Origin: Ionaspis alba
Lineage: Eukaryota
Length of the DNA: 38,955 nucleotides
Assembly: GCA_964255285.1 (NCBI GenBank)
Contig: CAXUUL010000001.1
Span: 124,001-162,955 of the forward strand
Direction of reading: 5' to 3'
The notes beneath the pieces were generated by a model. That model did no database searches. It was not told where the DNA came from and saw only the letters and a program-made list of their open reading frames with translations. Both the position numbers and the translations under genes were made by a program. Shown piece after piece: positions 9,327-29,907 of the stretch; positions within the stretch are counted from its first letter, which is position 1, and every line of letters begins with the position of its first letter.

Positions 9327-9615
9327 ACTGGCTTAGATATTCCATAGCATCAACTAACTCCTGACAGTAAGGCTGTTTGCATGGCAGCCACAGACTCTTT
9401 AGCAGGGTGGTAGTGAATATTGATGGCGGAATTATTTTTGATCTCTAGGCGGTCAGCCTGAACCTTGGCGTTTGACCTGACTCTCCAACATACATTCTAC
9501 CCAACTTCCGCCGCCTCTACAAAGCTCTATCTTCAACGAAGATGCACTGCTATCTGCTCCACGGCTGAAGATCGATGGTATAGATTACAGTGGTGGTCAT
9601 AGTCATTCAATTAAG
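9327..9615. promoter_or_regulatory. Short divergent (bidirectional) promoter region shared by RPA190 and PRP3
   Basis: Only 289 bp separate the two head-to-head ATGs (9326 on -, 9616 on +). Confidence 0.65.
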
Positions 9616-11792: not shown

Positions 11793-14174
11793 TCACATCT
11801 TCTGCGCCCTCGTAGTCCTCTCATAGAATTCCAATGTCATGGCCGCTAACAACGCTGGTATCTCCTTCCTCTCATCCACCCAAAACCGGATCAACCCCCT
11901 GATCTCCGCGGCAAACTCGCTTTGCGGGCCGCCCCCGATCTTCATGGAGCCGGAGTCGCCATCGAAAATCAGCGAGTTCTCCCCCCCGCCTCCATCGTCT
12001 CCCGGATAGAAAATGGAAGTCATGCGAAATCTCCCGGCCGGCATGAATTCCATCTTCCATCCCAACAGCGACGCGACTGCTTCGCGGAACTCGGTCGTCT
12101 TGAGCGCCCAGATCTGCTTCAGGCGGAGCATGCGCTTCTCCTTCTCGGCGACTTCTTTCTGCAGTTCGGAGATCTCGAGGCGAGCGTTATGCAGGGCGCT
12201 GATGGGGACGACTTTGGTGGGGGAGGATCCGCTCGCTAGTTGAGCGCGGAGTGCGGTGTTTTCTTCCCGTAAGGAGGCGATGGTGCCGCGTTTGTGGGCG
12301 GCGTGATCGTCGGTTGGATTGGAGCGGAGGGCAAGAATACGGATGCGGGAACGGGCTTCGAGAGCGGACAATTGGGATTTGGCCGCTGCGAGGTCGGAGG
12401 AGAGGAGAGTAACGGATTGTTGGAGAGCGGTCAGTTCGGTGTGAAGTTTGCGATTCTTGCGAGACAGCTCACCGAGACGCTCATCAGAGTCTTCTTCTCG
12501 AGGTCTTTTGAGGGTTTGGGTATCCGGCAGTGGATGGACGTCTTCGCGTGTGGATAAGTCATTGGATAGGACTTGAACCTCGGTTCGATATTGGGAGAGG
12601 AGCGATTCGAGCTCCTGGATCCTTTTCCGAGCTTGCTCTTCCGGTTCGTTGCGAATTTCGTCTGTAACGTCTCCGTTCTCGAAAGTTTGCAGCTGCTCTC
12701 TCAAGTAGTCGACCTCCTTAACGGCCAGAGCTTTCTGCCTCTCCAGACGACTCTTCGCTCGACTGTCGCTCGCTCCTCCGCCAGCCTTGAGCCTCTCCAT
12801 ATCGGCCAGTAGTCTGTTCCTTTCTGCCGCCAGGTTCGCGATGATGGCTTCCTTCTCCGAGACCTCCGGCCGTACCGCTCCTAGTCGTTCGAAGAGGGAA
12901 GCTCTTTCCAATCGTTCCCGGGCAAGCGCTCTAGCCACAGCTTGCGGGGAGTCGAACTCAACAGCACTTTCACCCTCGAGGTAAGAAGCCCAAGATTTCC
13001 TCTCGTCCTCGAGCATCTGCCTTTGAAGCTGTGCCTCGCCCAGCTCTCGTCGCAACTCATCTATCGATCGAACCTTGTTCTCCAGAGTCCTCTTCTCCTC
13101 CTCGACAATCTCCACGGCTTTGTGGACTTGTCGAAGATGTCGCAACTCTGCGGTCTGCTCACGATTGGTCTTCTCCAGCTTGCGCATATGAGAGATTTGT
13201 TTGGATAGTTCCCGTTTCACTGTTGCCAGATCATCGGAGTCAAGAGCTTGTGCTTTTAACTGCAGTACCTCACTCTCCAATCGGCCCACCTCGGCCTCTC
13301 GGTGCTTAAGTCTGTCCTGGGTGGACTGTAGCAGCAAAGATCTGATTGTCAGTGCGTCGCGTGTGTCCGTAATGGTCTGTTGCAAGGCTGCCTGCTGAGA
13401 CTCGAAGTCCTGCAGCTGGTATTTGTGTTGACGATGAAGCGTCGATAGCTCCGTCTGTACATCGTCGACATTTTCTTGTAAAATCCTGTTCTGGTCCTTC
13501 GATGCCCTGAGCTTTTTCTCCAACTCGTGCTGTTGGCTGGCAGATCGATCCCGGAGTTGCTCGAGCTCAATGACCAACTCGTCGTTCTTGTTGCTAGTGA
13601 TGTGTTTGCTGGTCTCGGAAGCCTTGAACTCGTCCGGTTAGTCCTGCCAATCCTCGCACGTTCTTCAGATTACATACCAACGCCCGTCTGAAGTCCGTCT
13701 CGGCCTTTGCCTGTGCGTCTCGTAGCTCCTTGCTGTGCCGCAATTGCGCGAAGTCTCGTTCTTGCTTCAACGACTCGACCTCATATTGTAGGGTCTTAAT
13801 TTGGGCCCGTAGGTCCTCGTTCCCAATATCTAGATGCCCATTAGCTCTCCTGATTCGCTGTCACAATACAGCGCCCAGCTCGTACCGGGCTTGACTGCCT
13901 GAGACTGCTGCAACGTTTGTCGCAGAGCGGCTGATTGCGGCGATCCAGAAGCGCAAGAGAGATTATCATAAATAGGCTGGGTGGTCGTGTGCCTGCTCGC
14001 GGTATGCTGTCACTCGGTCAGAACAGGTGCCGTTCGAGGGCCAGCGAGGGAAGTCCGCACTCTAGACCCTGGCACGGGGATGCCTGATGGCGCATTGCTG
14101 CTCACGCTTCGACGACGGGAAGGGGGACCAGGATCTCGGCTCCATTGGCGAGTCTGGCGCATTGGGGATGCCAT
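11793..14174 (-). CDS. MAD1: Spindle assembly checkpoint protein Mad1 (about 738 aa)
   Basis: Long coiled coil, Mad2-binding-like RILALRSNP, RLK motif in KRMLRLKQIW..EFREAV..LLGW, C-terminal IPALLAAMTLEFY. Introns 13623-13677, 13830-13885 and 14007-14060 (or 14007-14105) restore the N-terminus. Start uncertain: in-frame ATGs at 14174, 14162 and 14318. Confidence 0.93.
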
Positions 14175-14842: not shown

Positions 14843-16753
14843 CTAGGTAGCCTTGACCGGAACAGGCTTTCTCTGGACGCCGCTGGAGGTTTGTGGACGC
14901 GAGGTGGTCGTCGGAGAAGTGGCAGTCGGACGGGTAGATGTCGGCTTCTGCGCGCTCGCGAACCCTTGAGCGATACTCGATGCATTTGGATTCATGGGAC
15001 TTGGGCCGGGTGGGCTGTTGCATCGTGCACGAACATCGCCGGCGGAGTTGCTACGTCTCTTTCCACCTAGAGGAGGCATCGATTGTTGAGGTCCTCCACC
15101 GTAGGGTCCAGGCGACATCGATCTCTGCGGCGATGCACCCAAGGGGGCGGGCGACATTGACCGGGGAGCGCGACCTGGAGGTCCGGGCGAAGCGGCACGA
15201 TTCGGTGGCCCCATTGCAGTTTGGATGGGAAGGCGAGGAACGGGCATTGGAGGACCGCGTGGCGGGGGCTTGGAACGAGGCTTGACCGGTCGAGTGGATA
15301 GGCATGTACGCGGAGCGACACCTTGCTGGGAGCGGTCCAAACGAATGCAGAGAGCCTGTACCTCCCATTAGTCCTGTCCGTGGAAGATTGTGACCGCGGA
15401 GAGAGTGCTTACCCATCCATCGTCGTACTCGTGTAAAAGTCGGATCAGCTGGCCTGCTTTCAACTCGATCTCGTCCGCCATAGAAGGCTTGAAGTCGAGT
15501 TGGATGCGGTGAACATTGGTTGGTGGAGCTCCGTGCGTCATCGTGCTCGTCGATACGGAAGTCATGCTAAACTCAGTACCAGTGGGACTCGGCATGGCGC
15601 CTTCGATGGGTTGTGGAGTTGGAGACACAGTGCGCTTGATGTCGAGAGGTTTGGGCGCGTTGTGGCGTTGAGCTAGGTTCGCCGTGGCAGCTCCAGCAAG
15701 AGCAGTGACTCCGACTCCAAGTGCGGCTCCAGCGATTGGCCCTGTGGATTCCGACGTGGGGGTGCCAACTCTGAGAGGAGCAGGGATCTCCGAGCCATTT
15801 TGAGCCAGTTCAGCATTGTGCCCGAACGGATTCTCGACCTGCGGCTGTGCCTTTTCGAGATCTCGAGCCTGGGTGGTAGCACCGGCAGTGAGCCCTGTGC
15901 TGGTGGGGGGTTTCTGGCCCATGAACTCGGGCTCAAATTGTGTGACTGGACGAAGGCTAAGTTGAGGTGGGGTTGTCGCACGCGGAGGTGCCGGTGCAGC
16001 GGCTGCTGCGTTGTCGCCGAAGGGATTTTTCTCATCCTCGGGACGCTCATACGCTTCGTTCTGCTGCTGCCTCCTGCGGTGGTGACAAAAGGCGAGCAGG
16101 CCGAGTAAGGCCGCAAGACCAAGGATGACACCGATGGCCACACCTGCCTTCGCCCCACCCGACATACCGTTGGACGACTTTGATACGGTGGCGGGGTCAG
16201 CGTTGGAGGATGAATGACTTGCCGAGGCAGCATCGACCGGTAGTGCCGACGAAGAGACACCAGAGGTTGCGGTAGTCAGCCCGGCGGCAGAAGGAGAGGC
16301 TGTGAGAATGGATTGGAGGAGCGAAGTCGCAGTCGATCGCGGAAGAGGACTCGACGTTGTATCGGCCGCGGTGTTGCTGGATCCTGTGTCAGTCGGCAGA
16401 GACCCCACGAGCGCACTTGAAATGGCGGCCGCTGACGAGTCGGCCGCATTACTCGTCGGAGCAGCGGCAGGCGTGTCTGACGTGACTGGTAGAGGAGCAG
16501 GAGTGTCCGAGGTAACGGACTGCGCTGCCGGCGCGTCGGCGGAGGTGACACCCAGAGTCATGTAGCTTCCCACCGAGCCCTCGAAGGTTTGAGCTGCAGT
16601 CACGTATACGACGGACACGAGTGTGGCCACCTGGTTGTCGACTTGTGGCACGGGGGCATTGGCGTTCTTCCCCTTGCCGTCGCCGCGCTTGGGATGACGG
16701 CGTGGATGGATATGGTGGTGGTGGTGGTGGTAGTGTTGTTGTTGTTGAGCCAT
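14843..16753 (-). CDS. Single-pass membrane protein with Ser/Thr-rich N-terminal region and cytoplasmic SH3 domain (Fus1-like architecture, about 617 aa)
   Basis: ATG 16753; intron 15356-15412 (GTAAGC..CTAAT..CAG) joins YDDGW to ALCIRLDRSQQGVAPRTCL, completing the SH3 (HRIQLDFKPSMADEIELKAGQLIRLLHEYDDGW). TM helix AGVAIGVILGLAALLGLLAFC followed by HHRRRQ. Pro/Arg-rich tail with RSMSP repeats. Confidence 0.88.
16713..16747. repeat. Compound coding trinucleotide microsatellite (TGG)6-TAG-(TGT)4
   Basis: Directly visible; encodes QQQQHYHHHHHH at the N-terminus of the SH3 membrane protein. Confidence 0.85.
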
Positions 16754-17965
16754 GACTGATTGGGTGAGAAGCGACTGACCATGAACTTCTCCCAGGCAAT
16801 TCGAATGATATCTTGCGGTGTTGGAATAACGGCACGATGAAATGCTGAAGTGAGGACTGAGAGTTGACCCCTTGATCGCCAAACCAGGGCGGGTGAGAGA
16901 ACACAGACAAGCAGACGCACAATCGCGTAACCGAATGAATGGAACGTGAATCGGGGCAACTGCTGGTCGGAAAAGAGTGACGACACAACAGTTGTTCAGA
17001 AGCACGGATGGTGTCGAATGGTAAAAGAATGGAACGCTCTACAAGGAGAGCAAGACAGCAACAGTAGTGAGTGTGGGATCGAGGAGAGTTGAAGGTTGTG
17101 GGATGGAGAGCAGAGGGCGACTGGACAGGATTAGTGACGGCGGAAGCGCGAAAAGAAAAGCGGGCGAAACAAAGGCGCGAGAGAGGCCAGGTCGATGTCT
17201 GAAATTACACAACTAAACTACAAGAGGTAAGGTGCCAGGGGTCAGTCAGACGATCAGGCCAATGAGAACAGTCGAGGCAAGGAACTCCCAATTAGCGGGG
17301 GTCAGAAGGGTCAGACGGACCATGGGGACATGCAAGCCATTCATCGTCAGACGTTTCGGACAGTCAGGAGTCATTAACTGTAATCTACGTGTACGGTACA
17401 TGATATTACGCAGAGCACAAGTACATGATAGAGTGATGTTAACCGTGGGAAAGGGGAACGACCAGCACGTGGACCACCAGTGCGACCAGTTCGCAGTAGT
17501 CCCATTGTCCGTATACTGTGGGTTCTTCACACCAGCGAGGCGGAGCGACTCCATTCAAGGAGGGTAGCCGGGCGCGATCAGCACTCATCAAACGCCACTG
17601 GGAACACCCCCGTCATTGCTGCTGTTGTTAATTGATGTTACGGTTGTGGTGGCGCATTCAAATGCTTAGATTAAAGGATGCCTTGACGTCAAATCTCCCG
17701 GTAGATTCTCATCCCCGGTCTGAATGAATGCAAGCTCGGAGTGGAAATCGAGGCAGAGTGACAGGTAGACTTGAACTTCGAGTAGCGAATTATCTTCAGA
17801 ACATCAACATTATGCGGCCCCTCGGTCACGAATGCACGAATAATAGGCCGACTGCAGATTCGACCCTGCCGACTACCAGCATATAACCAATGCAATGAGA
17901 TCTGTTCCCCGATCTCATGCATAGACGGTGCAGAGATACTGTCGTTGACCCACATGAACTGCATC

Positions 17966-20900
17966 TTACTCTTTTCCATTGGCAACGTACTTCCCGCTCA
18001 CCAACTTCCGAATCGTCGGTACTGCTTTGTACACACCGTTCGTCGGGCCCGCCGCACCCTCATCCGCGAAGGGATCGGTCCCCTCGTCTCGAAGTCCACC
18101 GATCGAGCTCACCCCAAGCCCGCTACCCAAGCCCGCTGCATGCTCACCACCGATCTCCCATCGAGCTTCCACATTCCCGGGTTTGGCCTCCGCCTCCGTC
18201 GAGAATCGAGCAAGCAGCTTCGGGGAGGCTTCCGCATAACTGTCCAACGTCACGTCCCCGAGCCTCCAGTAGATCAGATTCTTGTCCCTGGAGAAGTGGC
18301 CCATTGGCTTGGACATGCACGACACCGCTTTGGTCTGCTCGATATTGATCATCACCACCACATTCTGCATTGACACGCTTCTACGGGCGGGAGAGACGAA
18401 GGACGGGTTGAACGCATAGGTGAGGATCACCGAGATCTGCCTGGGCTCGACCTTCCATACCGGGGTCAGAAGGATGGGAGCATGGGCTGCCAAGGTCGTG
18501 TCTTCCAGATGCACCTGATACTTGAACGCGACCGACGTACGAGCAATGTGGGCGAGGTCGACCGCGTATTCTCCCGACTTGGAAGGTACCTGGGTGATGA
18601 AAGTAGGATTCGGCGCAACTTTCTCGAGGACCGGAAAATTTTCCAGGCGGATCGTTTCCGATGCTTTATGTTGAGACTCACGCGCTTCTGTGTAAGCAAG
18701 GGCAACTTCACCAGTAACCACAGCCTTCGTCACGTGACCTTCGGTAAGCCAGGCGCTAACAGTCTCAACAATAGATGCATGGAGACCAGGTTGGTGCATC
18801 TCCGGGTGCTTCACAATGGCTTGCGAGATGCTACTCAGAGAGTGCGAAGATCTTATGGACTGCGTATCGGCACCTCTGGGGTCTTCCAGATTCAACTTGC
18901 CACCTCGAGCCGCGCTGCCACCCGGCGACAGCGGAGCCAGCCCTGCGTCTGGGAACGGTTGACTTTCAGGAGTCGACGGATTCGGTACAAACACGGTATT
19001 GCGAACATCTCTGCGGCCACGTAAGGTTCCGGGTTTGCGTTGCGGAGGGATGGCTTGTGCTTGCTAGATGCAATCAGTCAATGGCTCCATTGCAATGCCC
19101 CTATCTAGAAGTCTTACAGCGCGTAGAGTATTGGCAACATTTGACAGCGCAGTTTGCGCATCCCGATCTTCTTCGTGAATTGGCTCGTTGCGTATGTCAA
19201 GTTTGAACTGAGGTACTTCATTGTCACTGGCATTGTCAGCTCAGAGTATTTCCGGCCAACAGGCTCATAGGTAGCTTACGCAGTTGCTTCTTGCTGCGCA
19301 CGGGATATCTCGTCGACGGTAGATGACGGTACGTTGAAGCCGTCGGCATCTCGCTCGGCCTGTATCACGTGAGCGGTGACCAGCTGTTGCATTCAAGACT
19401 GCCCACCTCTTCGGGAATGGTCGACGATGGACGCGGCTTGTACGCTTTTGTAGGCTCTGAACTGAGTAGAGTCCCATTAGTCAACAACGGAGGTTCCTGA
19501 GCATTTCCGGGCTGGTTAGCATCTCTGTCCAGATCAGGCTCGGTATTCTTGTTCTTCGAGATGGAAGGGCTTGCTTGTGAATCACGACTCTCGGATGGCT
19601 CGCCCTGTTCACGGATCTGCCTTTTGGCCGATGATGCGGGTAAGTCCGTTGAGGAAGCATCTGGCGAGGGCAACTGCTGCATGTTCTTGGAGCTGGGACC
19701 TCTCCTGAGTGGGTTCCTACTTGGCTTGGAACGCTTCTCCGGAGACGGCAGTCGCTCAGTTGGTTTTGCATCCGTTTTTCGCCTGCCGATGACTGTGCCC
19801 AAGCGCTTCAGACCACTCATCCCTCCTTTCTTGTGTTCTTTTGGGGCTGCTGACGTTAGCAGTCGCCTTACTTCCCACATATTCTTCAGACATACTTGCG
19901 GGTGGCTTAGGCACATCTCCAGCTTGGGCTGATCTGTCACTCTGCCTGTCAACTGACGGTCTCGAAGGTGTCATGGCGCGGGGAGCAAGGGCAGAAGCGG
20001 CGGTCGAGGGACGGGCCCTTGCTGATTGTGCAGGGCTAGTGGGCAACGGAGAAAAGGATCCAAGGTTTGATGACGCTCTGCTTTGTTTACGAGGAGATAT
20101 GGTGGGTGTGCCGCCGGTGTTTCTGGCGACAAATGTAGATACCTCGTCTGCTGTGTTCACGTTCAACAAGACGTTGAGGCAACTTTCAGCACTCAGACGA
20201 CTTCGCTCTAGCTGATCCACCTCGTGTGTCTGAAGCTGCGTCAAAACGTCCCGTAAGTGATTGACACGGCTTTCGTCCAACGCCTGAAGCTGTTCAAAGA
20301 CAAAGGGAGCTTGGGATTGCCATTGTTGTAAGGCATCCTGAACATTGGAAGCTGCAAAGGAAACTTTGTTTGTGTCCGCCTTTGCTCCCTTAGCCAGCAG
20401 CTTTTCCGACCTCTTTTGGGCCTCTTCCAGCTCCTTAGCAATGGACTGTAAATTGCCCTGGATTGTAGTTATTCCTTGCATTTCCCGGTTCATGGTCTGG
20501 AACTCCCGCAAAGGCCGTTCTACATCGATCTCAATCTTTTGCGCAAGCATATCGTGGGATTCGGCGAGAGATTCGGTAGAAGCAACGATGCTCTGCCACG
20601 GTGTATGGAAGACACTAAGACAGGTCAGTTGTAGTAGCCAGAAGGAAACTAAAGGCTTTGCGTACCCTAGAGCAGCAGCGCCATCCTGCTGGCGTCGGGC
20701 AGCAAGCTTCTTCAGGCCCTGCACGTAGAGCTCTTCCACCTTTCGCCGTTCCTATTCACTGGTATGAGTAAGGTTATCTCACTTCAGGATAACCGGGGTA
20801 CACACAAGCAGCCAATCCGCAATATCTGCATTGATTTTGCCTATTTGTCTTACCCTCTCGTTCACAAGAGATACAGCTTGATTGGGTAGCAGAGAGGTCT

Positions 20901-20998: not shown

Positions 20999-21312
20999 CT
21001 TCCTGACAAACCCAGTGCGACATCAACAGCGTCGAACATTCAGCGCATTCTACAGCATACCGTGTTCGCTGAGGCGCATATAGGCAGTCCGTGCCGTCGC
21101 AATGAAGCTTGATCGCACACTTGGGCTGAATCCATTCTAGCTTACTACTTCTCTCGTCTCGCGCCAATTATCTACCCTGGAGGGGGATGTCCTCCCACCA
21201 TTGCCTCTCCTAAAGGGAGCGTCTATGTGAATGAATCCATATTGATGACGATGCTGCTCAACTCCGGTCAAAGATTAGCAAATTCATAGAGTAGAGTCTA
21301 CCCAGGAGGACC
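20999..21312. promoter_or_regulatory. Divergent promoter region between SYP1 and the CAK-like kinase
   Basis: 314 bp between head-to-head ATGs (20998 on -, 21313 on +); depends on the inferred kinase exon 1. Confidence 0.55.
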
Positions 21313-22730
21313 ATGTCCCAGAAAGGATGGCAGGCCAATATGAGCATGAGTGACAGGTTGGCTGCTGGGATGAAATTGTCAGTTCTTGATGTCCCAATGT
21401 TCTTCCTCGTTGCCTGCCATACTCATGTAAATGTCTTTGTCTTCATAGAATGTCAGCTTGCAAACGGGCATCACCGAATGCCGATCGGTCTCTGGTACAC
21501 ACCGAAGCAAAAGCCATCGAAGAGAATGCTTTCCAAATTGCAGTATCCCAAGTGTGTATCCCTGGAGCAGGACGGTATATAATGTTCATGATCGATTGAC
21601 CATTTCAAGGAACACTACCATGAATTATTGCAGTCCGCTCTCAAGCAATTGGCCGCTACTACTAGCGAGACAGAAGCACCCATACCAAGTGTCCCTGCTA
21701 AGATATACTCCACCTCCTCCGTTACGACTCGCCCTATAGGCCCTTATTCGGCGAGTTACCACGCATCCGGCCTCTTTTCCACCGTCTATGTTGCCTCCTC
21801 CACACAGTCCTCCAGCCTTATCGCCCTCAAGCTCACAACCCCATCGCAGATGTTTCCACCCCACAACTCCGTTCGCGAAGCCCGCATCCTAGCCCTCACA
21901 GCTCATTCCTCAATTATTCCCTTACTTTCCACCTTCCAACAACCAGGTGGTCACCTCGTGCTAGTTTTCCCCTTCGTGCCCCACGACTTCGCTGCGCTCC
22001 TTGACCAAGGTGCTCTCACCCCTTCCCAGTTCCGCTCCCATCTTCGAGATCTGTTCAGCGCTCTCGTGCACATCCATTCCTTGGGGGTTATCCATCGGGA
22101 CATCAAACCCTCGAACATACTCCTCATGTCTCCTTCTGGACCAGCTTACCTCGCAGATTTCGGCATTGCCTGGATGGAAGGGGATCCGGAATCAGAACCT
22201 AGCGAGGCGAAGATTACCGACGTGGGCACAACGTGCTATCGGCCGCCGGAACTACTCTTTGGGAACACTGCTTATGATAGCTCGCTAGATATGTGGGCGG
22301 CAGGGTGTACCGTTGCGGAAGCGCTTCTTGGTCCGAGGAAGACACTCTTTGATGCCGGTCCATTAGGCAGCGAATTGGCTTTGATAGCATCGATATTCAA
22401 GACACTAGGGACACCAACTACCACCACCTGGTCGGTATGCTGTAAACTCTACATCATCTGGCTTGGACATGCTCCGTTGACTCGGATTGTAGGAAGCCAA
22501 AAGATTTCCTGATTGGGGCAAGATTCAATTTCATCACTATCCTCGGAAGGAGTGGCGTGATATTCTGCCAGACGTTGGAGATGATGCAAGAGATATGGTG
22601 AGCGAGCTCGTGATCTACCAAAGTACTGATCGACTTTCTGCTAGTGAAGTGAGCCACGTCACCTAGGGTGAAACGGTTTTGGGCTGACCAATCTTAGGCC
22701 TTGGATCATCCTTTCTTCTCGAAAGTGTGA
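21313..22730 (+). CDS. CMGC kinase of the monomeric CDK-activating kinase (Csk1/Cak1-like) type with N-terminal KIX-like domain (about 393 aa)
   Basis: Exons 21313-21377, 21449-21551, 21610-22434, 22493-22648, 22698-22730 (1182 nt). Degenerate Gly loop HASGLFSTVY, IALK, PPHNSVREARIL instead of PSTAIRE, HRDIKPSN, DFG, DVGTTCYRPPELLFG, DMWAAG, FPDWGKI, ALDHPFF. The ORF-track ORF 21628-22512 has no in-frame ATG ahead of the kinase domain, so upstream exons are required. Confidence 0.85.
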
Positions 22731-23058: not shown

Positions 23059-24436
23059 TCAAAACGGATAGCTCCTTGCCTCTTCTTCCACACTCAAATC
23101 CAGACCGCCAGCAACCTGCTCCTCGTGCTTTTTATCGAGGTACTCGAGTAACACTTCTTGATATTTCTCCTTGCCTTTGTACCGGCTCACGTCATCTCCC
23201 CAACTACGAATTGCACTTGCCAACCTCCCTGGCACATAAGGCTCAGCTGCCACTTCGGTGATCGGATGGAAATATGTCCTGATGGTGAAGACCACACCAC
23301 CAGACCTAGGCAAGCGTCGCAGACTCTGCCGCTCACTTCGAAACATGTGATGCTGGACGGCCTTGTTCTTTTCGGCCGTAAACCAGCCATGAGCCATACC
23401 TGTAGAATCCTCCGTGTCTTCTGGACCAATGCTGTCACTCCAGCCCAGATTATCGTCGACCTGGATGAAATAGTTGTTCCGTAGGACCGGGCCGTTAGGC
23501 TGCACGCGTCGAAAGAAGTTCATCATACCCTTTTCGAGCTTTTGCTTGAATCCAGGCACATTACCCGATGTATGGATCTCGGATAACGGCATACCAAACT
23601 TGTCATCGAGACGCCAAAATCCTGCGAGAAGAATGGAGCCAGCCAGCAGGTAATATTGGCCATCGTCCTTTCCAAACATAATCGCTAAATCGTCTTGAAC
23701 CATTCGACCTGCCATCTGCATAGGATCTTCAACCAGAGGTCGCTCAATAATGTTGAAGGATTCGCTTGTCAGGAGGTTGTCCATTCCCACCGACGTCTTA
23801 CGATAGAGGGAGGGATAGCGCAGAGGCAGGTAATCACAGCTTCGTTCGTGCCTACGTTAGTGACGTAATGGATGTGAACGGATGGGAGACTCACAACTCC
23901 TCGAGCAGTTCTACAGCGCCATCGAAGGCCTCCGGTGCAGTTCTGCAACAATTTTTACCGCGCTCTTCAATGCGGCGAGCCTTGTCAGCATGGAAGCGAG
24001 GATAGTGGTTGTCTAACTCGATCCATTCGTCCCACTTCATGGTTCTTAGTCCCATTGTGATGTGGTATTGCCCATACTTGAAAGGTCGATAGGGTAGAGG
24101 TTTGGTTGTTTGAACATCCCAGTCGGGGTATGGCTCCGGAGCAGGGCGTTGGAAATCAACCGGTATCCAACGACCAGGTGGCCGTTCGGCAGCTTTGGAC
24201 TTGCCCGGGATTGTTGTCGAAGGTTTCTCAAGGTCCGGAGAACCGACTCGGGTCTTTGCCGGTCTTTGGAACTTCTTCAACGCTCGAGGCACAAGCCATA
24301 TGAATAGCAAAGGCATCAGAGCCCCGTAGAGCAGGTAACTAGGATGTGCGGCCAACCACGATGCAAACTGCGTAACATATACATGTGCGCAGCGACCAGC
24401 GCGAGACAGAGTGTCCAAAGAGATTGTTGTGGCCAT
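23059..24436 (-). CDS. DUF3445 / heme-dependent oxidative N-demethylase alpha-subunit-like protein with N-terminal TM helix (about 440 aa)
   Basis: Motifs PYRPFKYG.YHITMGL, WIELDNHY, YLPLRYPSLY, VQDDLAIM, GFWRL.DKFGM.L.EIH..VP, RNNYFIQ, FRSERQSLRRLPRSG.VVFTIRTY. Intron 23840-23894 (alternative in-frame acceptor at 23852). Start ATG 24436 or 24490. Confidence 0.85.
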
Positions 24437-24873
24437 GCTGAGTAGGTGTCTCTGATCATCGACGATGGAGTGAAGGAGCAGATTGAGCATGTCAAAAGAG
24501 GAGAACAGTCAACGTATAGGTGATAGTAGCGACCAAAGCGTTTCCGCACTTATCAAGACCGTGGCAATTCCGCCCCGCCAAAGGTCCGCGAATGACATCC
24601 CACTCGAGGGTCGGCAAGCGCCAACAACAAACACGTGGGGAAAAGCGAGGGACCCTTTTGGGCTTCTGCTCTGCAGCTCTTATCGTTTCCCGGAGATCCT
24701 TGCCCGTTCATTGGTTGGGATTTCCAGGTGATATCGGGTTAGGCACCCACGTGACGGCCGGGTGCAGCCGCCCGGCGAGGTGATGCCAATTCCAAGGGAG
24801 GGGCAAAAAACTGCCGAAGTGTCGAGGTCGTGGTGAAGGGCGATGCGAGGCTACAAGGCCCTGGCGGGTAGGA

Positions 24874-26852
24874 CTACGATGCTTTGCGTCGCCGTAACAA
24901 GCAATACTGTCCCCACCGTCTCCGGTGCTGCTGTGGCATCCACGATAATTCCGGAAGCCACAGGATTCTGCCCAACGTACCTGAATGCGCTGCATCGAGG
25001 AACTGATTGCATTGGAGCTTCTCCCACGTCTTGCTGTCGGCCGTGTAGTCAGGCTCGAGCGAAGATCGAGCAGTGTGCGGGAACTGCGAGTCCACCATAA
25101 AAGAACAATGGGCCACATCGATCTGCCAGTCATCAGAAAAGGCCGTTGGACAACCGAGCCGGACCAGACTTACATATTTGCCAGGATCGGCAATGTTCCG
25201 GTCGTTCATACCCGGCGGGATGAGCCACGTACCGGAAAAGAAGCCAAAGCCTACATTGGACTCGTGAAATTCTCCGGGTAGTAAACCGTCAAAGGCGCTT
25301 TTGACGAATTTGGCACGGGTGCCATTTGGCAGATGATACGATGATGGGAAGCGATACCACTCCCTACCGAGACACACCGTATCTCCAGGTCTAGCGACTC
25401 CGGGCTGTTGCAGCGCAGAGTATATTTGCAATGGAGCTCGGTAAGCTGTGATCATGCCCAGGGTCCGCAAAAACCCGATGTCTATGGCGAGGATGACGGG
25501 AATGCCAACTAGTGCAAGCTTTACCTTCGGAGGGACTTGGCCCACCAGTCGGCCGGGATCAGATGTACCAATGAATGCAAGTATGGCATGCAGTGCAATC
25601 GCGGCATTCAGAGCAAGAAATGGGTAAGCCGGAAACATGAATCTCTCCTCCTTGTGTGGCTGTGCGGAGAATATGGCGAGCCACATGTAGAACGGAATGG
25701 CGGAGAAGGCATTGCGCATGAGGGTCAATCTGGTAACTGTCTGGCTCCTGGCAAAATATTGCAGGACGATAACAGGACCGGCAGACAGTGCCAGGACAAA
25801 CCAGATATTGAAATTGAGAAGGAGATTACGAAAATAGAAATCGAATGGCTCGGTCCCGAAAATATCTGGACCACGTCCAGAACCACTGAATATGTTATAG
25901 AAGACAAGTTGCCACGGTACAACAACGACCTTGTGGTAGAAGAAAGCATCAATGGCAATTTGGAGTGCCTGAAGATGTCAGCATGTTCCTTTCCCCAAGG
26001 TCAAGAGAATTTCTGTGTTACCAGGGCAATCGCACATCGAACAGTGCCGTCGAGGAATCTTCGACCGACCTCTACAAAGTCTCTCGTGATCGATGCAAAG
26101 ACAAACTCCTCAGCAATGAATGGGGCCACCAAAGCGGCTGCAAATGGCCAACCGATAATGCCAGCAATGCCAAACCACATGATACCTTCGTTGGTTTTTG
26201 ACCCACCGCGCCAATCCAAGAAGGCAGATATTCCCAACATTACCATGTACATGGAGAAGCTCGATGGAAGATATGCGGCTGAGGCATGAAACATGCCTGG
26301 GCTTGAGAGCATAATCATCATGAACATGATGGCGATTCTGGGGTTCATGGTCCTGGAAATGGTCGTGAAGAGGCGCTGTTGGCAAAAGGCACAGGTCAAG
26401 GCCAGGGCGGTCCGGATGAAATAGAACTCAAAGCTCTTTGCCGACGAGAGCAGCGATCCAAATTTGCCGACAACTGCATGGATAACAACGTAGAGCCAGC
26501 TTCGGAAAGCAAACTCGGGCGAGTATTCCCATGTCTGCAACCCATAGCCACGGTTCAGGTAGTGGGTGGGCTCCCAGTAGTTGAAGACCTCATCGCAGTC
26601 CTGGATCGGCGCATAGAGTGCAGCAAGAACGTTCACAGCAGCGAAGATGTAGAAGGCGGTTATGGGTTCGACGACGAATTGATCCTGGGGCCGTGGCTTA
26701 GGACTTTGAGCGAATTTAGCCACTTCGTCTCAACTCTTGAATCGTTCGGTCAAGAGTGTAGATTGAAATGAAACGTACGCGGGGAGAGTCTTTGACGGTG
26801 TTTGAGCGTCGGACCGAGGACGTGGGATAGGCTCTGGATACTTGGGTGCCAT
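24874..26852 (-). CDS. ALG9: Alpha-1,2-mannosyltransferase Alg9 (GT22, about 599 aa)
   Basis: PIQDCDEVFNYWEPTHYL..G.GLQTWEYSPEF, AYLPSSF, GWPF, GPDIFGTEP, QPHKEERFMFPAYP, VCLGREWYRFPSSYHLP, FDGLLPGEF. Introns 26704-26778 (least certain), 25969-26021 and 25123-25173; 1800 nt spliced. Confidence 0.96.
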
Positions 26853-27213
26853 TCCGATGCTAAAATAGAGGGTGGAGAGTTGCAAAGTCAAGAGGGAAAG
26901 CACGAAGGAGCAATGGCCGAGAAGTAGTGCAGTAGGCTTCTGGTTGATCCCAGAGTTTAGATCAATTCGGGGACGGGAAAGAAAGCATATCAATAGTGCC
27001 AGTTCTGGAGCTCGGACCACTAAACTCCTAGACCTTTTCCTTCTGCCCTGTAGGCTGAAGCCAATCCCCGGCATATTCTCCACCACGAAATTATCAATCG
27101 CGTCAAGCAGTCCCGTCAGCAGCTGCTTCTCACCGTGTACAGGATGAGAAGCGGGCTTCTTAGATTCGAGGAAGATCGCTTTCCTTGAGATTCAATCCCA
27201 GTAACGCGGCGAG
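26853..27213. promoter_or_regulatory. Divergent promoter region between ALG9 and NAF1
   Basis: 361 bp between head-to-head ATGs (26852 on -, 27214 on +). Confidence 0.55.
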
Positions 27214-29907
27214 ATGGACTGGGAGCATGACTTTGAAATACCTGCAGCAAAGAAACCTCGCTGTGAACCTTCGTCTTCGATAGACTTGATAGCTGCTCAA
27301 GATATGATGGAGGATGAAGATGACCTTTACGACACGCCACCGGGAACTTCGGATCTCCCAGGAAACGGTCAAGAGGAAGAAGCCTTTCGCGCTACCCAAC
27401 CTTCCGAGCAAATTGATATTCCGAAGCCTTCTTACACCTTGCCAGGCCTTGGACTCTTCGGCTTGGTCTCAGAGATCTCAGATCATACGAGAAAGCCGTC
27501 GATCGCTATGATGGAGGTCGCGCACATTAAGGGTCCGTGTGACGGTACTGGTGCTGCCTGGATAGAAGAGCCAGCATCGGATGAGGAGAAATCTGCGCCA
27601 ATTCTTGAAGGAAGATTAATTGAGACCCGCGTTTTAGTGAATAACGAGGCGAGCGGATCGCCAATGTGTATGAGTCTAGAGACGCAGCAGCAACAGGATG
27701 TCGGAATGCCTGCCAGTTCAGGCATTAATAATCTACTTCTTAAAGAAGATCATGAATCTACTCATACGACTAGCGGTATTGGCAGTGGGATTAAGGAAGC
27801 CGGATCGAGACCAGAGAGAGAATCCAAGCACTTTGCGGGAAGAACACCTTCAACTAGTGATCCACAAGCTGGAATTTCTTACCGGGAGAATGCGGTTTGC
27901 AAAGGACTAAAGATCGGCGAGACCGACAACTCAGATGGTCCCAATGCCAGTAAAACCGGAACCTTTAGTTCGGGTAGCGCAGAGATGGCACAGCAGGAGC
28001 TTATGGGGTCTTTCGATGCCTCGGATTGGGGACCTGTGGATCAGAATGGGCAGCAGCCGGTGCTGGGACGTAGACGTGGGACGCCAGAGGCCCATTTCAC
28101 CATTAATAGGCAAGAAGACTTGTCTCGGGAGGAGCAAAGGGATCCCGATCCGCCCAGTAATATTGCCAATGGCGACCTCCCAAGAGCGGATATCGTTCGA
28201 TGCACCTCTGTGAACAGAGCCTCTGTTGAAGAAATAACGCCTGGACTAGCAGGTGTAACTCCATCCGCCATCTGCTCTCCCGGGCCACATTCAACAAGAG
28301 GTGAAGCTAGTAATGATATCCGTCAATCTCCTGGTGCTGAGCAAGATACTGACATACGAACGACGACAGCTAACGCTTCAGAGTTTGAGCTTGACTCCTC
28401 CCCATACGAGTCGTCTTCCGAGGACTCTACAGACTCGTCATCGGATGAAACTGATAACGACTACAAGATGCTTGACCCGGCAGGACAAGCTCGTCTACTC
28501 ATGCAGGAAGATGGCGGTTCCGAGGATGAGGTAGGCAAGAAGGAGCCGAGAAACGGACCTTTGAGGACTCTAAACGAAAAGCCCGATGAAAATGTCGAAA
28601 AACCAGACATCATCGTTACAACAGACACTCTGATCGAAGAGCTTGGAAACGTAGAAGCACTAATCGATAACATCGTACTAGTGAAAGCAAAGACTTCGGG
28701 GGAGTACCAGGTTTTAGAGACAGGCTCGCTGCTATGCTTGGACGACCGAACTGTCATTGGTGTAGTAGCTGAGACTTTGGGAAGAGTACAACAGCCACTT
28801 TATTCAGTCCGATTTACGGACGCAACAGCAATCACGGAAAGTGGTATATCGAAACAGACTACAGTATACTATGTTCCACAGCATTCATCATATGCCTTCA
28901 CCCAGGCCCTGAAAGCTGTTAAGGGCTCAGACGCTTCCAATATTCACGACGAAGAGGTTGGCGATGATGAGCTGGAGTTTTCCGACGACGAAGCTGAGGC
29001 AGAGTACAAGCGCATTCAGAAGCTGCAACGACAGTCCAGGCGCGATGGACGGGGAACCGCTAGCCGAGGATGTCAGCGCGGTCCACGCCAGAGAGGCGTC
29101 GAACCCAGAAGTAGAGGCGATGACATGAGATCTGGACATGACAACGCCGTAGCCATCAATTATGATGATGGGGACAACGTCGAAGAGCTATATACCCCGC
29201 TTGCCAGACCGGCAAACCTACACGAAATGATGGGCCAAGGAGAACGTTCGTTACAATTCCAGCAAGAAGGCCACCCTAGAGCGAACAATCGAACACTCGG
29301 ACGAGAAAGGTACCGTGGGCCTCGCGGCAATGGTGGAAGAGGAGGCAGGGGAGGCCAAGGTAGAGGACGTGATCGTGGACGGCGGAACGGAGACCATGGC
29401 GAGCCTTACTCACAGAGTACGACAATATCCGGACCAAATCTATCACTGCCTCCAAATCCCACGAACGGCTTCACCCTTCTAAACTCTGTTGCGTCCGGCC
29501 CAATGGCATCGCCAGATCTTCGATCTATTCACACGTCACACGCCTCTCAGCAACCTACGTGCCAGCCGATTGTCGCCGAGCAGCTGCATGAACAGCCTCG
29601 GCGCTCGTACTCCCATGATCAACATCCCTATCCCTATCAGGCATCTACTTCTTATCACCCAGCCACACCGCAGATAGCCTACCAACCAGCGCCATACAGT
29701 CACCACCAATATCCCCAAACAGCTCAACACAAACCCCAATACCCAGTGTCTTCATACACCACCCCCCCTCTTCCTCCCGGTGCGTTCGTCAATCCTGCCT
29801 TCTTTGGTAACCAATATTCGAATTTTCCTAGTTATCAACGCTCGGATAGACAAGACCCTGGTCCAAGACTGCCTTCCCATATCGACCATACGAATGAACC
29901 GACATAG
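27214..29907 (+). CDS. NAF1: H/ACA snoRNP assembly factor Naf1 (Gar1/Naf1 domain)
   Basis: Single 897-aa ORF. N-terminal PAAKKPR NLS-like motif, acidic Ser tract, core ELGNV..VLETGSLLCLDDRTVIGVVAETLGRVQQPLYSVRF, KGSDASNIHDEEV..EFSDDEAEAEYKR, RGG region and P/Q/Y-rich tail with LPPGAFVNPAFF. Confidence 0.93.
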   Translation: MDWEHDFEIPAAKKPRCEPSSSIDLIAAQDMMEDEDDLYDTPPGTSDLPGNGQEEEAFRATQPSEQIDIPKPSYTLPGLGLFGLVSEISDHTRKPSIAMMEVAHIKGPCDGTGAAWIEEPASDEEKSAPILEGRLIETRVLVNNEASGSPMCMSLETQQQQDVGMPASSGINNLLLKEDHESTHTTSGIGSGIKEAGSRPERESKHFAGRTPSTSDPQAGISYRENAVCKGLKIGETDNSDGPNASKTGTFSSGSAEMAQQELMGSFDASDWGPVDQNGQQPVLGRRRGTPEAHFTINRQEDLSREEQRDPDPPSNIANGDLPRADIVRCTSVNRASVEEITPGLAGVTPSAICSPGPHSTRGEASNDIRQSPGAEQDTDIRTTTANASEFELDSSPYESSSEDSTDSSSDETDNDYKMLDPAGQARLLMQEDGGSEDEVGKKEPRNGPLRTLNEKPDENVEKPDIIVTTDTLIEELGNVEALIDNIVLVKAKTSGEYQVLETGSLLCLDDRTVIGVVAETLGRVQQPLYSVRFTDATAITESGISKQTTVYYVPQHSSYAFTQALKAVKGSDASNIHDEEVGDDELEFSDDEAEAEYKRIQKLQRQSRRDGRGTASRGCQRGPRQRGVEPRSRGDDMRSGHDNAVAINYDDGDNVEELYTPLARPANLHEMMGQGERSLQFQQEGHPRANNRTLGRERYRGPRGNGGRGGRGGQGRGRDRGRRNGDHGEPYSQSTTISGPNLSLPPNPTNGFTLLNSVASGPMASPDLRSIHTSHASQQPTCQPIVAEQLHEQPRRSYSHDQHPYPYQASTSYHPATPQIAYQPAPYSHHQYPQTAQHKPQYPVSSYTTPPLPPGAFVNPAFFGNQYSNFPSYQRSDRQDPGPRLPSHIDHTNEPT

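What the first reader, a model, noticed from the sequence alone, without database searches (positions are those of the whole stretch)
21313..21650. Hidden exons give a CDK-activating-type kinase an N-terminal Med15-like KIX domain
Seen: removing introns 21378-21448 (GTCAGT..CATAG) and 21552-21609 (GTGTGT..TTGAC..CAAG) yields MSQKGWQANMSMSDRLAAGMKLMSACKRASPNADRSLVHTEAKAIEENAFQIAVSQEHYHELLQSALKQL in frame with the kinase. This peptide appears in no single ORF of the track. Recalled knowledge: the plant Med15 KIX domain reads roughly W-x8-R-x5-K[IL]M-x3-K-x3-P...A-x2-FEE-x2-F-x2-A-x2-Q-x2-Y, and this peptide fits that spacing with one ~3-residue gap. KIX domains bind transcription activation domains. 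Yeast Cak1 and S. pombe Csk1 activate cell-cycle and transcriptional CDKs and, to my knowledge, are described as bare kinase domains. Inference: a CAK that activators could recruit directly to promoters, linking them to CDK7/CDK9-type activation. I know of no description of this fusion, but did not search.
Basis: partly seen in the sequence, partly recalled or inferred. Interest (0 to 1): 0.8.

Follow-up and report, generated by a model that had tools for sequence, protein, structure and literature searches.

The report
CDK-activating kinase with KIX domain
Two small, easily missed exons give this fungus's CDK-activating kinase a real KIX protein-docking domain, a fusion shared by the whole Pezizomycotina group of fungi, visible in databases, but apparently never studied.

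Summary
Removing 21378-21448 and 21552-21609 joins three frames into one N-terminus. With two more introns, the gene (21313-22730, +) encodes 393 aa. A profile built only from orthologues finds just these two exons in the whole window, abutting at the proposed junction.

The KIX reading is supported. Orthologues reach Pfam KIX_2 above its cut-off (7 of 20). An N-terminal profile hits only KIX domains at the top of the PDB. An AlphaFold model of the closest complete orthologue's N-terminus matches Gal11, CBP, RECQL5 and ARC105 KIX. The window keeps W6, R15, E46, F50 and Y59.

The kinase belongs to the Cak1/Csk1 family. It is 51% identical to A. nidulans An-Cak1 (AN0699), which carries the same domain.

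The domain occurs in every Pezizomycotina class sampled. It is absent from six Taphrinomycotina and Saccharomycotina members. On a kinase-only tree this fits one gain.

The fusion is not fully new. Public records carry precomputed KIX_2 hits, and KIXBASE (2017) mentions KIX with kinase domains in one clause. No paper I could search links KIX to a CAK.

What the domain binds is unknown, and promoter recruitment is untested. No RNA data were available.

The parts
21313..21377 (+). Exon 1: start codon and residues 1-22 (first two bases of codon 22). Encodes the short N-terminal helix and most of KIX helix 1, including W6 and R15.
   Evidence: The orthologue HMM matches this piece at HMM 1-22, E 1.2e-3, in the whole-window six-frame scan.
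21378..21448 (+). Intron 1 (71 nt, GTCAGT...CATAG), phase 2.
   Evidence: Hypocenomyce model P0009 carries an insertion at this position, consistent with a retained intron.
21449..21551 (+). Exon 2: residues 22-56. Encodes the end of helix 1, the loop and KIX helix 2, including A42, E46, E47, F50 and A53.
   Evidence: HMM 23-56, E 9.2e-8. Several public orthologue models start at the Met that opens this exon.
21552..21609 (+). Intron 2 (58 nt, GTGTGT...TTGAC at 21596-21600...CAAG), phase 0, with an AAG acceptor.
   Evidence: Xylographa trunciseda model P0005 has a 20-aa in-frame insertion exactly here.
21610..21663 (+). Start of exon 3: residues 57-74, KIX helix 3 with Y59.
   Evidence: The helix boundaries come from the AF2 models of orthologues.
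21664..21735 (+). S/T/P-rich linker, residues 75-98, within exon 3.
   Evidence: The equivalent stretch of orthologue P0039 has pLDDT below 50 (residues 81-98). Its length and sequence vary between orthologues.
21736..22434 (+). Rest of exon 3: kinase domain from the IGPY motif through the ALK lysine, HRDIKPSN, DFG and TCYRPPE. The glycine-rich loop is degenerate (ASGLFSTVY).
   Evidence: Pfam Pkinase E 4.2e-36. Invariant catalytic columns in A3. Sequence.
22435..22492 (+). Intron 3 (58 nt, GTATGC...TGTAG).
   Evidence: A script enumerated GT..AG pairs. This pair restores the conserved W-x-EA..FPDWGK sequence seen in orthologues.
22493..22648 (+). Exon 4: C-lobe of the kinase.
22649..22697 (+). 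Intron 4 (49 nt, GTGAGC...CTTAG).
   Evidence: It gives the conserved C-terminal ALDHPFF-type ending of orthologues.
22698..22730 (+). Exon 5 with the stop codon TGA at 22728-22730. The CDS totals 1,182 nt, or 393 aa.

Best explanation
Shown: a five-exon gene (21313-22730, + strand) encodes a 393-aa orthologue of the fungal monomeric CDK-activating kinase (S. pombe Csk1, S. cerevisiae Cak1, A. nidulans An-Cak1). Its first ~74 residues form a Med15-type KIX three-helix bundle. A ~25-residue, probably disordered S/T/P-rich linker joins this to a CDK-like kinase domain that keeps its catalytic residues but has a degenerate glycine loop. The fusion is a shared trait of Pezizomycotina and fits a single gain.

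Inferred: the KIX domain acts in trans as a flexibly tethered docking module. It would bind a short amphipathic, activation-domain-like helix in a partner. That would bring the kinase to particular substrates or complexes, where it phosphorylates CDK T-loops (Cdk1, Cdk7, Cdk9/Bur1-type, Ctk1-type). The partner is unknown. It could be a CDK or cyclin tail, a transcription factor, or a component of the Pol II machinery.
For: Gene model:
- Spliced peptide reproduced in a script.
- Orthologue-only HMM matches window residues 1-70 at E 8e-22 and finds only these two exons in the window.
- Collinear with P0018, 57% identity full length.

KIX identity:
- Pfam KIX_2 at or above its 25.6-bit cut-off in 7 of 20 orthologues. 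It is below the cut-off with E <= 1.1e-3 in 8 more and absent in 5, all of which have damaged or missing 5' ends.
- In 21 diverse representatives with the extension, KIX_2 at E <= 5e-4 in 7 and Med15_N in 1.
- A profile of 26 N-termini searched against the PDB gave 19 sequences at E <= 10. The top 12 are all KIX domains: C. glabrata Gal11/Med15 7.9e-7, Med15a 4.1e-5, CBP 1.4e-4, S. cerevisiae Gal11 1.5e-4.
- AF2 model of P0018 residues 1-80: pLDDT 84.4, helices 5-9, 12-29, 35-52, 56-74.
- Foldseek ranks 1-13 are all KIX, TM 0.58-0.77.
- VIA-align against 48,161 chains: the top 5 are all KIX, with Gal11 at Z 10.6.
- The window keeps W6, R15, E46, F50 and Y59. These align with the R/E/Y residues that the Rex3 preprint, citing Thakur 2014, describes as KIX hallmarks (passages).

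CAK identity:
- Only 158 of 1.84 billion representatives score E <= 1e-30. Of the 30 I looked up by name, this set includes proteins named csk1 (Colletotrichum, Neolecta) and CAK1 (Sugiyamaella).
- AN0699.2 (P0354) ends in the same ten residues as the An-Cak1 tag site. It is 54% identical to exon 3, E 9e-104.
- The A. nidulans kinome table lists AN0699 as the csk1 orthologue.

Tethered module: in the full-length AF2 model of P0039 (pLDDT 91.1), both domains are confident and the linker (81-98) is below 50.

Selection: W, R, E and Y are invariant or at least 90% conserved across 26 sequences from seven classes.

Docking in trans is what solved KIX domains do, judging by the titles of the PDB hits: pKID, c-Myb, MLL, HBZ, Pol II-RECQL5.
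Against: - No ligand is known. An-Cak1 with a C-terminal tag co-purified only with itself and was seen throughout the cell (PMC3944740, Table 1 and text passages). FgCak1-GFP was cytoplasmic (PMC4470668 passages). Neither result suggests a stable partner or stable chromatin residence.
- Bare Csk1/Cak1 kinases work without KIX (established knowledge for S. pombe and S. cerevisiae, recalled).
- The window's own spliced peptide could not be given to Pfam or AlphaFold. These tests rest on orthologues that are 33-44% identical in the domain. The two exon peptides alone gave no Pfam hit.
- Foldseek E-values did not reach 1e-3 (best 4.3e-3). The VIA tool warns that helical bundles can reach Z ~13 without being related.
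- The junctions lack RNA support.
- The full-length pTM of 0.85 does not exclude the KIX packing on the kinase.
Confidence: 0.55

Rival explanations
1. DNA-bound transcription activators bind the KIX, as they bind Med15/Gal11 KIX, and so recruit the CAK to promoters. There it activates Cdk7 and Cdk9-type kinases.
For: - The best PDB profile matches are fungal and plant Med15 KIX domains.
- Aspergillus Med15 itself carries a KIX_2 domain (PMC7568654 passages), so the two could share ligands.
- Csk1 activates Mcs6 and Cdk9 in fission yeast (title of Pei et al. 2006 as cited; the rest is recalled).
- An-Cak1 is not excluded from nuclei.
Against: - An-Cak1 had no co-purifying proteins and was distributed diffusely through the cell.
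- FgCak1-GFP was cytoplasmic and bound Cdc2A/B.
- KIX domains also serve other roles, such as RECQL5 binding Pol II and Rex3 in RNA processing.
- Nothing here tests activator binding.
Confidence: 0.15
2. Intramolecular role. The KIX bundle packs against the protein's own kinase domain and stabilises or gates its cyclin-independent active state. It would be a built-in regulatory subunit rather than a recruiter.
For: - Cak1/Csk1-type kinases act without a cyclin (recalled), so an added helical module could take a structural role.
- The full-length AF2 model has a high pTM of 0.85 despite a disordered linker.
Against: - The linker is long, variable and of low confidence, as expected for an independent module.
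- Bare orthologues keep the same kinase core.
- The conserved residues are the KIX core set, not an obvious new interface.
Confidence: 0.15
3. Pol II-directed KIX. Like the KIX of RECQL5 (and TFIIS domain II), the domain binds RNA polymerase II directly. This would place the CAK next to the transcriptional CDKs on elongating polymerase.
For: RECQL5 KIX in Pol II complexes is among the closest structural matches: Z 9.2 and 8.0, Foldseek ranks 9-13. TFIIS domain II also appears at Z 6.2. The Rex3 preprint proposes the same idea for another enzyme-KIX fusion (passages).
Against: - By sequence profile, Med15 and CBP KIX score far better than RECQL5 (7.9e-7 against 0.028).
- No Pol II subunits co-purified with An-Cak1.
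Confidence: 0.1
4. Artefact. The upstream exons are chance open frames and the real protein starts at or after exon 2 or 3.
For: - There is no RNA evidence.
- Several public orthologue models start at the exon-2 Met.
- Intron 2 has an AAG acceptor.
Against: - Exon 1 alone matches the orthologue HMM at positions 1-22 and carries the invariant W6 and R15.
- Complete N-termini exist in six Pezizomycotina classes, with a weaker partial match in Orbiliomycetes.
- The truncated models break off exactly at the exon boundary (HMM 23-25). That is the signature of missed exons.
Confidence: 0.03

Closest known systems
A. nidulans An-Cak1 (AN0699; N. crassa NCU04426 div-4; F. graminearum FgCak1 FGSG_04947)
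   Same: Orthologue. P0354 (AN0699.2) is 51% identical over the full length and has the same N-terminal domain, linker and kinase layout. It was studied by deletion (viable, strong growth defect) and by tagging. FgCak1 binds Cdc2A/B.
   Different: None of the three papers mentions the KIX domain. The word does not occur in PMC3944740, PMC3591445 or PMC4470668. I did not fetch the F. graminearum or N. crassa sequences, so their place in this family rests on the papers' own orthology tables.
S. pombe Csk1 / S. cerevisiae Cak1 (monomeric CDK-activating kinases)
   Same: Same kinase family. The family defined holds proteins named csk1 (Neolecta, Colletotrichum, Penicillium rolfsii) and CAK1 (Sugiyamaella). 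The kinase is CDK-like, with CDK7 the nearest solved structure at E 3.8e-32. The glycine loop is degenerate. That this is a Cak1 hallmark is recalled.
   Different: The six Taphrinomycotina and Saccharomycotina members examined are 286-330 aa and have no N-terminal domain. I could not fetch the S. pombe and S. cerevisiae proteins themselves. That they are bare is recalled.
Med15/Gal11 KIX domain (Pfam KIX_2 PF16987; PDB 4d7x, 2k0n, 9zjn)
   Same: Best sequence-profile and structural matches. Same helix order. W, R, E and Y core residues conserved.
   Different: No Med15 body. Orthologues show only KIX_2 plus Pkinase and no Med15_fungi domain, so the protein is not a Mediator subunit. Ligand binding is untested.
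Other enzyme-KIX fusions: CBP/p300 (acetyltransferase), RECQL5 (helicase), Rex3/REXO1 (exonuclease)
   Same: A KIX module attached to a catalytic domain that acts on or near the transcription machinery.
   Different: The catalytic partner here is a protein kinase. In print I found only one clause noting KIX with kinase domains (KIXBASE Discussion).

Membership tests
KIX domain (Pfam KIX_2 / CBP-Med15 KIX fold) | Match to the curated family profile at or above its gathering score | tested here: inconclusive
   The window's own spliced peptide could not be submitted, and its exon peptides alone gave no hit. Among orthologues, 7 of 20 were at or above 25.6 bits and 8 more were below it with E <= 1.1e-3. 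The window matches the orthologues' N-terminal HMM at 8e-22.
KIX domain (Pfam KIX_2 / CBP-Med15 KIX fold) | Three-helix bundle preceded by a short helix, superposable on solved KIX domains | tested here: met
   Tested on orthologue P0018 residues 1-80, which is 44% identical to the window in this stretch. AF2 pLDDT 84.4. Foldseek ranks 1-13 are all KIX. The VIA top 5 of 48,161 chains are all KIX, Z 10.6-7.7.
KIX domain (Pfam KIX_2 / CBP-Med15 KIX fold) | Conserved core Arg (helix 1), Glu (helix 2) and Tyr residues (cation-pi lock), plus the N-terminal Trp | tested here: met
   The window has W6, R15, E46, F50 and Y59. R15, A42 and Y59 are invariant, and W6 and E46 at least 90% conserved, in 26 sequences. 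They align to CBP's W, R, E, Y and Y in the HMMER alignment. The hallmark is as described in passages of the Rex3 preprint.
KIX domain (Pfam KIX_2 / CBP-Med15 KIX fold) | Binds activation-domain-like peptides | not testable with these tools
   No binding assay was possible, and the complex-prediction tool did not run.
Cak1/Csk1 monomeric CDK-activating kinases | Sequence orthology with named family members, separate from canonical CDKs | tested here: met
   158 of 1.84 billion representatives score E <= 1e-30. Named csk1 and CAK1 members lie within this set. AN0699 is identified by its C-terminus and by 54% identity. In the kinase-only tree the window sits inside the family. Solved CDK7, CDK5 and CDK2 score only about 1e-32 to 1e-28.
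Cak1/Csk1 monomeric CDK-activating kinases | Intact catalytic residues with a degenerate glycine-rich loop | tested here: met
   ALK lysine, HRDIKPSN and DFG are present, and ASGLFSTVY stands in place of GxGxxG. The catalytic columns are invariant in 33 sequences. That a missing glycine loop marks Cak1 is recalled, not tested.
Cak1/Csk1 monomeric CDK-activating kinases | Cyclin-independent phosphorylation of CDK T-loops | not testable with these tools
   This is a biochemical property. The only support is literature on relatives, namely FgCak1 binding Cdc2A/B.
Mediator subunit Med15 | C-terminal Med15 / Mediator-association domain | tested here: not met
   No Med15_fungi hit in any of 20 orthologues. 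Bona fide AfMed15 has KIX_2 plus Med15_fungi. The remainder of the window protein is a kinase domain.

The most novel reading that the evidence does not exclude
In the ancestor of Pezizomycotina the CDK-activating kinase captured a Med15-type KIX domain. Since then, transcription activators (or Pol II itself) have recruited CAK directly to genes through the same kind of surface they use on Mediator. This would couple activator binding to T-loop activation of Cdk7, Cdk9 and Ctk1-type kinases. It would be a signalling shortcut absent from yeasts and animals.
Probability: 0.15. Interest if true: 0.8.

Novelty: new variant of a known kind. Interest (0 to 1): 0.5.

Why it matters
CAKs sit at the top of both cell-cycle and transcriptional CDK control. 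In the model yeasts the monomeric CAK is a bare kinase with no known targeting module.

A KIX domain on the CAK of every Pezizomycotina class sampled implies a conserved, unidentified binding partner. This group includes Aspergillus, Neurospora, Fusarium, lichen fungi and truffles. The domain has been retained since the origin of the subphylum.

The two published tagging and localisation studies of this kinase did not consider the domain. The question is directly testable in A. nidulans or N. crassa by KIX deletion, point mutants and an interactome of the isolated domain.

There is also a practical point. Of the 120 closest public protein models, only 15 have the domain intact and 27 have it truncated or split. 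Many are cut exactly at the exon 1/2 boundary, so gene predictors routinely miss these exons.

Tried and rejected
- RNA evidence: no RNA holder was listed. The two runs laid are DNA-type contigs. One spans the whole stretch identically and may be the source. No joints were seen.
- Pfam on the exon-1 and exon-2 peptides alone: no family. They are too short.
- ESM Atlas search with P0063 residues 1-80: no usable hit and no model.
- Own-genome searches for other KIX_2 genes and kinase paralogues: no genome is held for this window. I therefore could not look for this organism's own Med15 or count its CDK paralogues.
- Search for longer proteins (689-2000 aa) related to the KIX of P0063, for example Med15, to test an origin by duplication: 234 candidates, none at E <= 10. 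This is weak evidence, because a 75-aa query faces a database of 5.8 billion proteins.
- Complex prediction, KIX against the protein's own kinase domain: the queue was full six times and the tool was then withdrawn. Nothing was folded, so intramolecular docking stays open.
- Earlier findings of this scan: nothing on this genome. A word search returned only unrelated items and two algal HAC-KIX cases.
- Literature searches that found nothing on the fusion:
  - 'KIX domain' + 'CDK-activating kinase': 3 unrelated papers.
  - KIX + kinase + Aspergillus + Med15: 10 papers, none on this.
  - KIX + Pkinase: 5 unrelated.
  - 'KIX domain' + Csk1: 0.
  - KIX_2 / PF16987 / IPR036546: 42 papers, 15 listed, none on a kinase.
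  - NCU04426: 4 papers, seen as a listing only.
  - Subscription journals and bioRxiv supplements are outside this search.
- Alternative splice choices for introns 3 and 4 were enumerated. Those that break the conserved WPEA/FPDWGK or ALDHPFF-type sequences were rejected.
Full report
**What is in the sequence**

The + strand between 21313 and 22730 carries a five-exon gene. The ATG is at 21313, and 21292-21294 is the nearest upstream in-frame stop (ORF 21295-21582).

- Exon 1 ends at 21377.
- Intron 1 is 21378-21448 (GTCAGT...CATAG).
- Exon 2 is 21449-21551.
- Intron 2 is 21552-21609 (GTGTGT, TTGAC at 21596-21600, acceptor CAAG).

The three exons sit in three different stop-to-stop frames, so the peptide is indeed in no single ORF.

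I enumerated GT..AG pairs downstream and kept those that restore sequence conserved in orthologues. This gave intron 3 at 22435-22492 and intron 4 at 22649-22697, with the stop at 22728-22730. The CDS is 1,182 nt, or 393 aa.

**Is it more than chance?**

I built a profile HMM from the N-termini of 12 orthologues, leaving the window out. It matched residues 1-70 of the spliced protein at E 8e-22, 71 bits.

I then ran the same HMM over all 1,412 six-frame pieces of the 38,955-base window. Only two pieces scored below E 0.01:
- the exon-2 piece (E 9.2e-8, HMM positions 23-56);
- the exon-1 piece (E 1.2e-3, HMM positions 1-22).

The next best piece scored 2.2. The two matches abut at HMM 22/23, which is the proposed junction.

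The closest complete orthologue, Xylographa pallens P0018, is collinear. It is 44% identical over the first 70 residues (E 1e-18) and 57% over the full length.

Two public orthologue models carry in-frame insertions exactly at the two intron positions (P0009 at intron 1, P0005 at intron 2). Three others (P0006, P0007, P0011) begin at the Met that opens exon 2.

Of the 120 closest database proteins:
- 15 have the domain complete;
- 27 have it truncated or split, many starting at HMM 23-25;
- 78 lack it. More than half of these are shorter than 310 aa, though 21 are 340-392 aa.

So 'hidden exons' is a fair description. No RNA evidence could be obtained (see Tried and rejected).

**Is the N-terminus a KIX domain?**

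Three independent lines say yes.

1. Pfam. KIX_2 (PF16987) is at or above its 25.6-bit gathering score in 7 of 20 orthologues: P0039 30.5, P0063 33.3, P0064 32.7, P0065 25.6, P0087 32.9, P0105 33.7 and P0108 30.9. It is below the cut-off with E <= 1.1e-3 in 8 more. It is absent in 5 models whose 5' ends are damaged or missing. Among 21 diverse 50%-cluster representatives with the extension, KIX_2 appears at E <= 5e-4 in 7 and Med15_N in 1. It appears in 0 of 4 bare relatives.

2. Profile against the PDB. A profile of 26 N-terminal stretches (A2) returned 19 distinct sequences at E <= 10. The first 12 are all KIX domains:
   - C. glabrata Gal11/Med15, 7.9e-7;
   - Med15a (9zjn), 4.1e-5;
   - CBP, 1.4e-4;
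   - S. cerevisiae Gal11, 1.5e-4;
   - p300, 1.1e-3;
   - MED15, RECQL5 and ARC105.

3. Structure. AlphaFold2 on P0018 residues 1-80, using that alignment, gave pLDDT 84.4. The model has a short helix at 5-9 and helices at 12-29, 35-52 and 56-74.
   - Foldseek ranks 1-13 are all KIX (CBP, p300, RECQL5), with TM 0.58-0.77 and probability 0.90-1.00. No E-value reached 1e-3; the best was 4.3e-3.
   - VIA-align against 48,161 chains put five KIX domains on top: Gal11 Z 10.6, CBP 9.3, RECQL5 9.2 and 8.0, ARC105 7.7.
   - The VIA tool warns that helical bundles can reach such Z values by chance. The structural line therefore counts mainly because it agrees with the two sequence lines.

The window itself keeps W6, R15, L16, A42, E46, E47, F50, A53, Q56 and Y59. 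R15, A42 and Y59 are invariant, and W6 and E46 at least 90% conserved, across the 26 sequences. In the HMMER alignment these columns align with the W, R, E, Y and Y of CBP KIX. They also follow the W-x8-R ... A preprint on Rex3 describes an Arg (helix 1), Tyr and Glu (helix 2) set as the KIX hallmark (passages).

One caveat applies. The Pfam and AlphaFold tests were run on orthologues, because the window's spliced peptide could not be handed to those tools.

**Is the kinase a CDK-activating kinase?**

Exon 3 is a protein kinase domain (Pkinase E 4.2e-36). It has the ALK lysine, HRDIKPSN, DFG and TCYRPPE, but ASGLFSTVY where GxGxxG would be.

Among solved structures the nearest are CDK7 (3.8e-32), CDK5, CDK2 and CDK12. 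An exhaustive search of 1.84 billion cluster representatives gave only 158 proteins at E <= 1e-30. Names were looked up for 30 of these representatives. They include:
- 'Serine/threonine-protein kinase csk1' (Colletotrichum, Neolecta);
- 'cyclin-dependent protein kinase-activating kinase CAK1' (Sugiyamaella).

A search with the A. flavus orthologue returned AN0699.2 of A. nidulans (P0354). Its last ten residues equal the C-terminal tag site given for An-Cak1 in Table 1 of PMC3944740. It is 54% identical to window exon 3 (E 9e-104) and 51% over the full length.

The A. nidulans kinome table lists AN0699 as An-Cak1. Its S. pombe orthologue is csk1 and its N. crassa counterpart is NCU04426 div-4. 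The deletion is viable with a strong growth defect (PMC3591445, table passage).

**Distribution**

The N-terminal domain is present in:
- Lecanoromycetes (Xylographa, Agyrium, the window);
- Eurotiomycetes (Aspergillus, Penicillium, Talaromyces, Emmonsia group, Ascosphaera);
- Dothideomycetes (Trichodelitschia, Phyllosticta, Westerdykella, Eremomyces);
- Sordariomycetes (Colletotrichum, Purpureocillium);
- Leotiomycetes (Pseudogymnoascus);
- Pezizomycetes (Peziza, Ascobolus, Tuber);
- weakly in Orbiliomycetes (Arthrobotrys, 17 bits).

The six family members examined from Taphrinomycotina (Neolecta, Pneumocystis, Saitoella) and Saccharomycotina (Myxozyma, Dipodascopsis, Sugiyamaella) are 286-330 aa. 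They show no match to the domain.

I built a quick maximum-likelihood tree from the kinase part only: 25 rows, including one CDK-like outgroup, and 296 columns. The 18 KIX-bearing rows form one clade (SH-aLRT 95.6), and presence of the domain changes once. The window groups with Xylographa.

This sampling is small and was chosen by me from the representatives. Basidiomycota and other phyla were not examined.

**Architecture**

A full-length AlphaFold model of orthologue P0039 (alignment of 33) has pLDDT 91.1 and pTM 0.85. The KIX helices are at 7-10, 13-30, 36-53 and 57-73. The linker is below pLDDT 50 at 81-98, and the kinase runs from 103. The linker varies in length and sequence between orthologues. 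This fits a flexibly tethered module, but it does not rule out docking on the kinase.

**What it probably does**

Three things are shown: a KIX domain, a Cak1/Csk1-type kinase, and a fusion with a strongly conserved KIX core across the subphylum.

The rest is inference. Solved KIX domains bind short helical peptides of other proteins or Pol II (titles of the hits). The most economical reading is therefore that the KIX docks the kinase onto a partner. The partner is unknown.

It draws some support from the Med15-type affinity of the domain. Aspergillus Med15 itself carries KIX_2 (PMC7568654 passages).

Against a stable promoter role, C-terminally tagged An-Cak1 was seen throughout the cell and purified alone. 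FgCak1-GFP was cytoplasmic, though it bound Cdc2A and Cdc2B.

Rivals are an intramolecular regulatory role and RECQL5-like binding to Pol II. Neither could be tested.

**Novelty**

The fusion is visible in public data. Precomputed PF16987 hits accompany orthologues, and by my count 61 of the 120 Eurotiales proteins.

The KIXBASE paper says in its Discussion that MED15-related KIX domains are accompanied by 'protein kinase/kinase-like domains' (PMC5668377, passage). I saw nothing there that names a CAK.

The three papers on An-Cak1 and FgCak1 do not contain the word KIX. Five further full-text searches found no paper linking KIX to Cak1 or Csk1. These searches cover open-access PMC and bioRxiv only.

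I therefore rate this as an undescribed variant of a known kinase family. It is already latent in databases, and this window adds one more member with a corrected gene model.

**Surroundings**

The neighbours are ordinary fungal housekeeping genes and give no functional hint.

Noticed in passing
window 21313-21551, compared with database proteins P0004-P0123: Most public gene models of the closest relatives, mainly lichen-forming fungi, mis-annotate the 5' end. Of 120, 15 have a complete domain and 27 are truncated or split, many starting exactly at the exon 1/2 boundary or with retained introns. The other 78 lack it.
   Followed up: yes
database protein P0090; window 11793-13637 (-): A 394-aa orthologue of this kinase with a complete KIX is named 'coiled-coil domain-containing protein mad1' in Chaenotheca gracillima. 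A Mad1-type gene (Pfam MAD, 1.7e-59) lies about 8 kb upstream in this window. The name may therefore be a mis-transfer between syntenic neighbours.
   Followed up: partly
alignment A2, Sordariomycete rows (Purpureocillium P0200, P0216, P0217): These versions of the domain have a loop between helices 1 and 2 that is 7-9 residues shorter. Their kinase parts form a long-branched clade with Leotiomycetes.
   Followed up: no
alignment A2 consensus, helix 3; window residue 63: Most family members have a Cys four residues after the invariant Tyr of helix 3. The window has Leu and Xylographa has Trp at that position.
   Followed up: no
window 17966-20751 (-): The upstream neighbour on the opposite strand has a muniscin mu-homology domain (muHD, 2.5e-73) in ORF 17966-19063. 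ORF 19756-20751 may be its N-terminal part, but it gave no Pfam hit at 1e-5. It looks like a Syp1/FCHo-type endocytic adaptor gene with introns.
   Followed up: partly
window 23059-24508 (-): The downstream neighbour on the opposite strand is a HODM_asu-like (haem-dependent oxidative N-demethylase alpha-like, PF11927) gene split over two ORFs (4e-76 and 7.8e-10). Its 3' end lies about 330 bases from the kinase stop codon.
   Followed up: no
window 3939-8525 (-), 9481-11406 (+), 24874-25977 (-), 27205-29907 (+), 34216-35883 (-): Other neighbours are an RNA polymerase largest subunit (Rpb1 domains 1-5), Prp3, an Alg9-like GT22 mannosyltransferase, a Gar1/Naf1-domain protein and Exonuclease V. 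ORFs 15368-17038 and 30484-31572 gave no Pfam hit at 1e-5.
   Followed up: no
bioRxiv 10.1101/2024.04.22.590624: Another enzyme-KIX fusion, Rex3/REXO1 exonucleases, was recognised only recently from AlphaFold models. Its KIX is required for function in yeast. This is a precedent for overlooked KIX modules on enzymes.
   Followed up: partly
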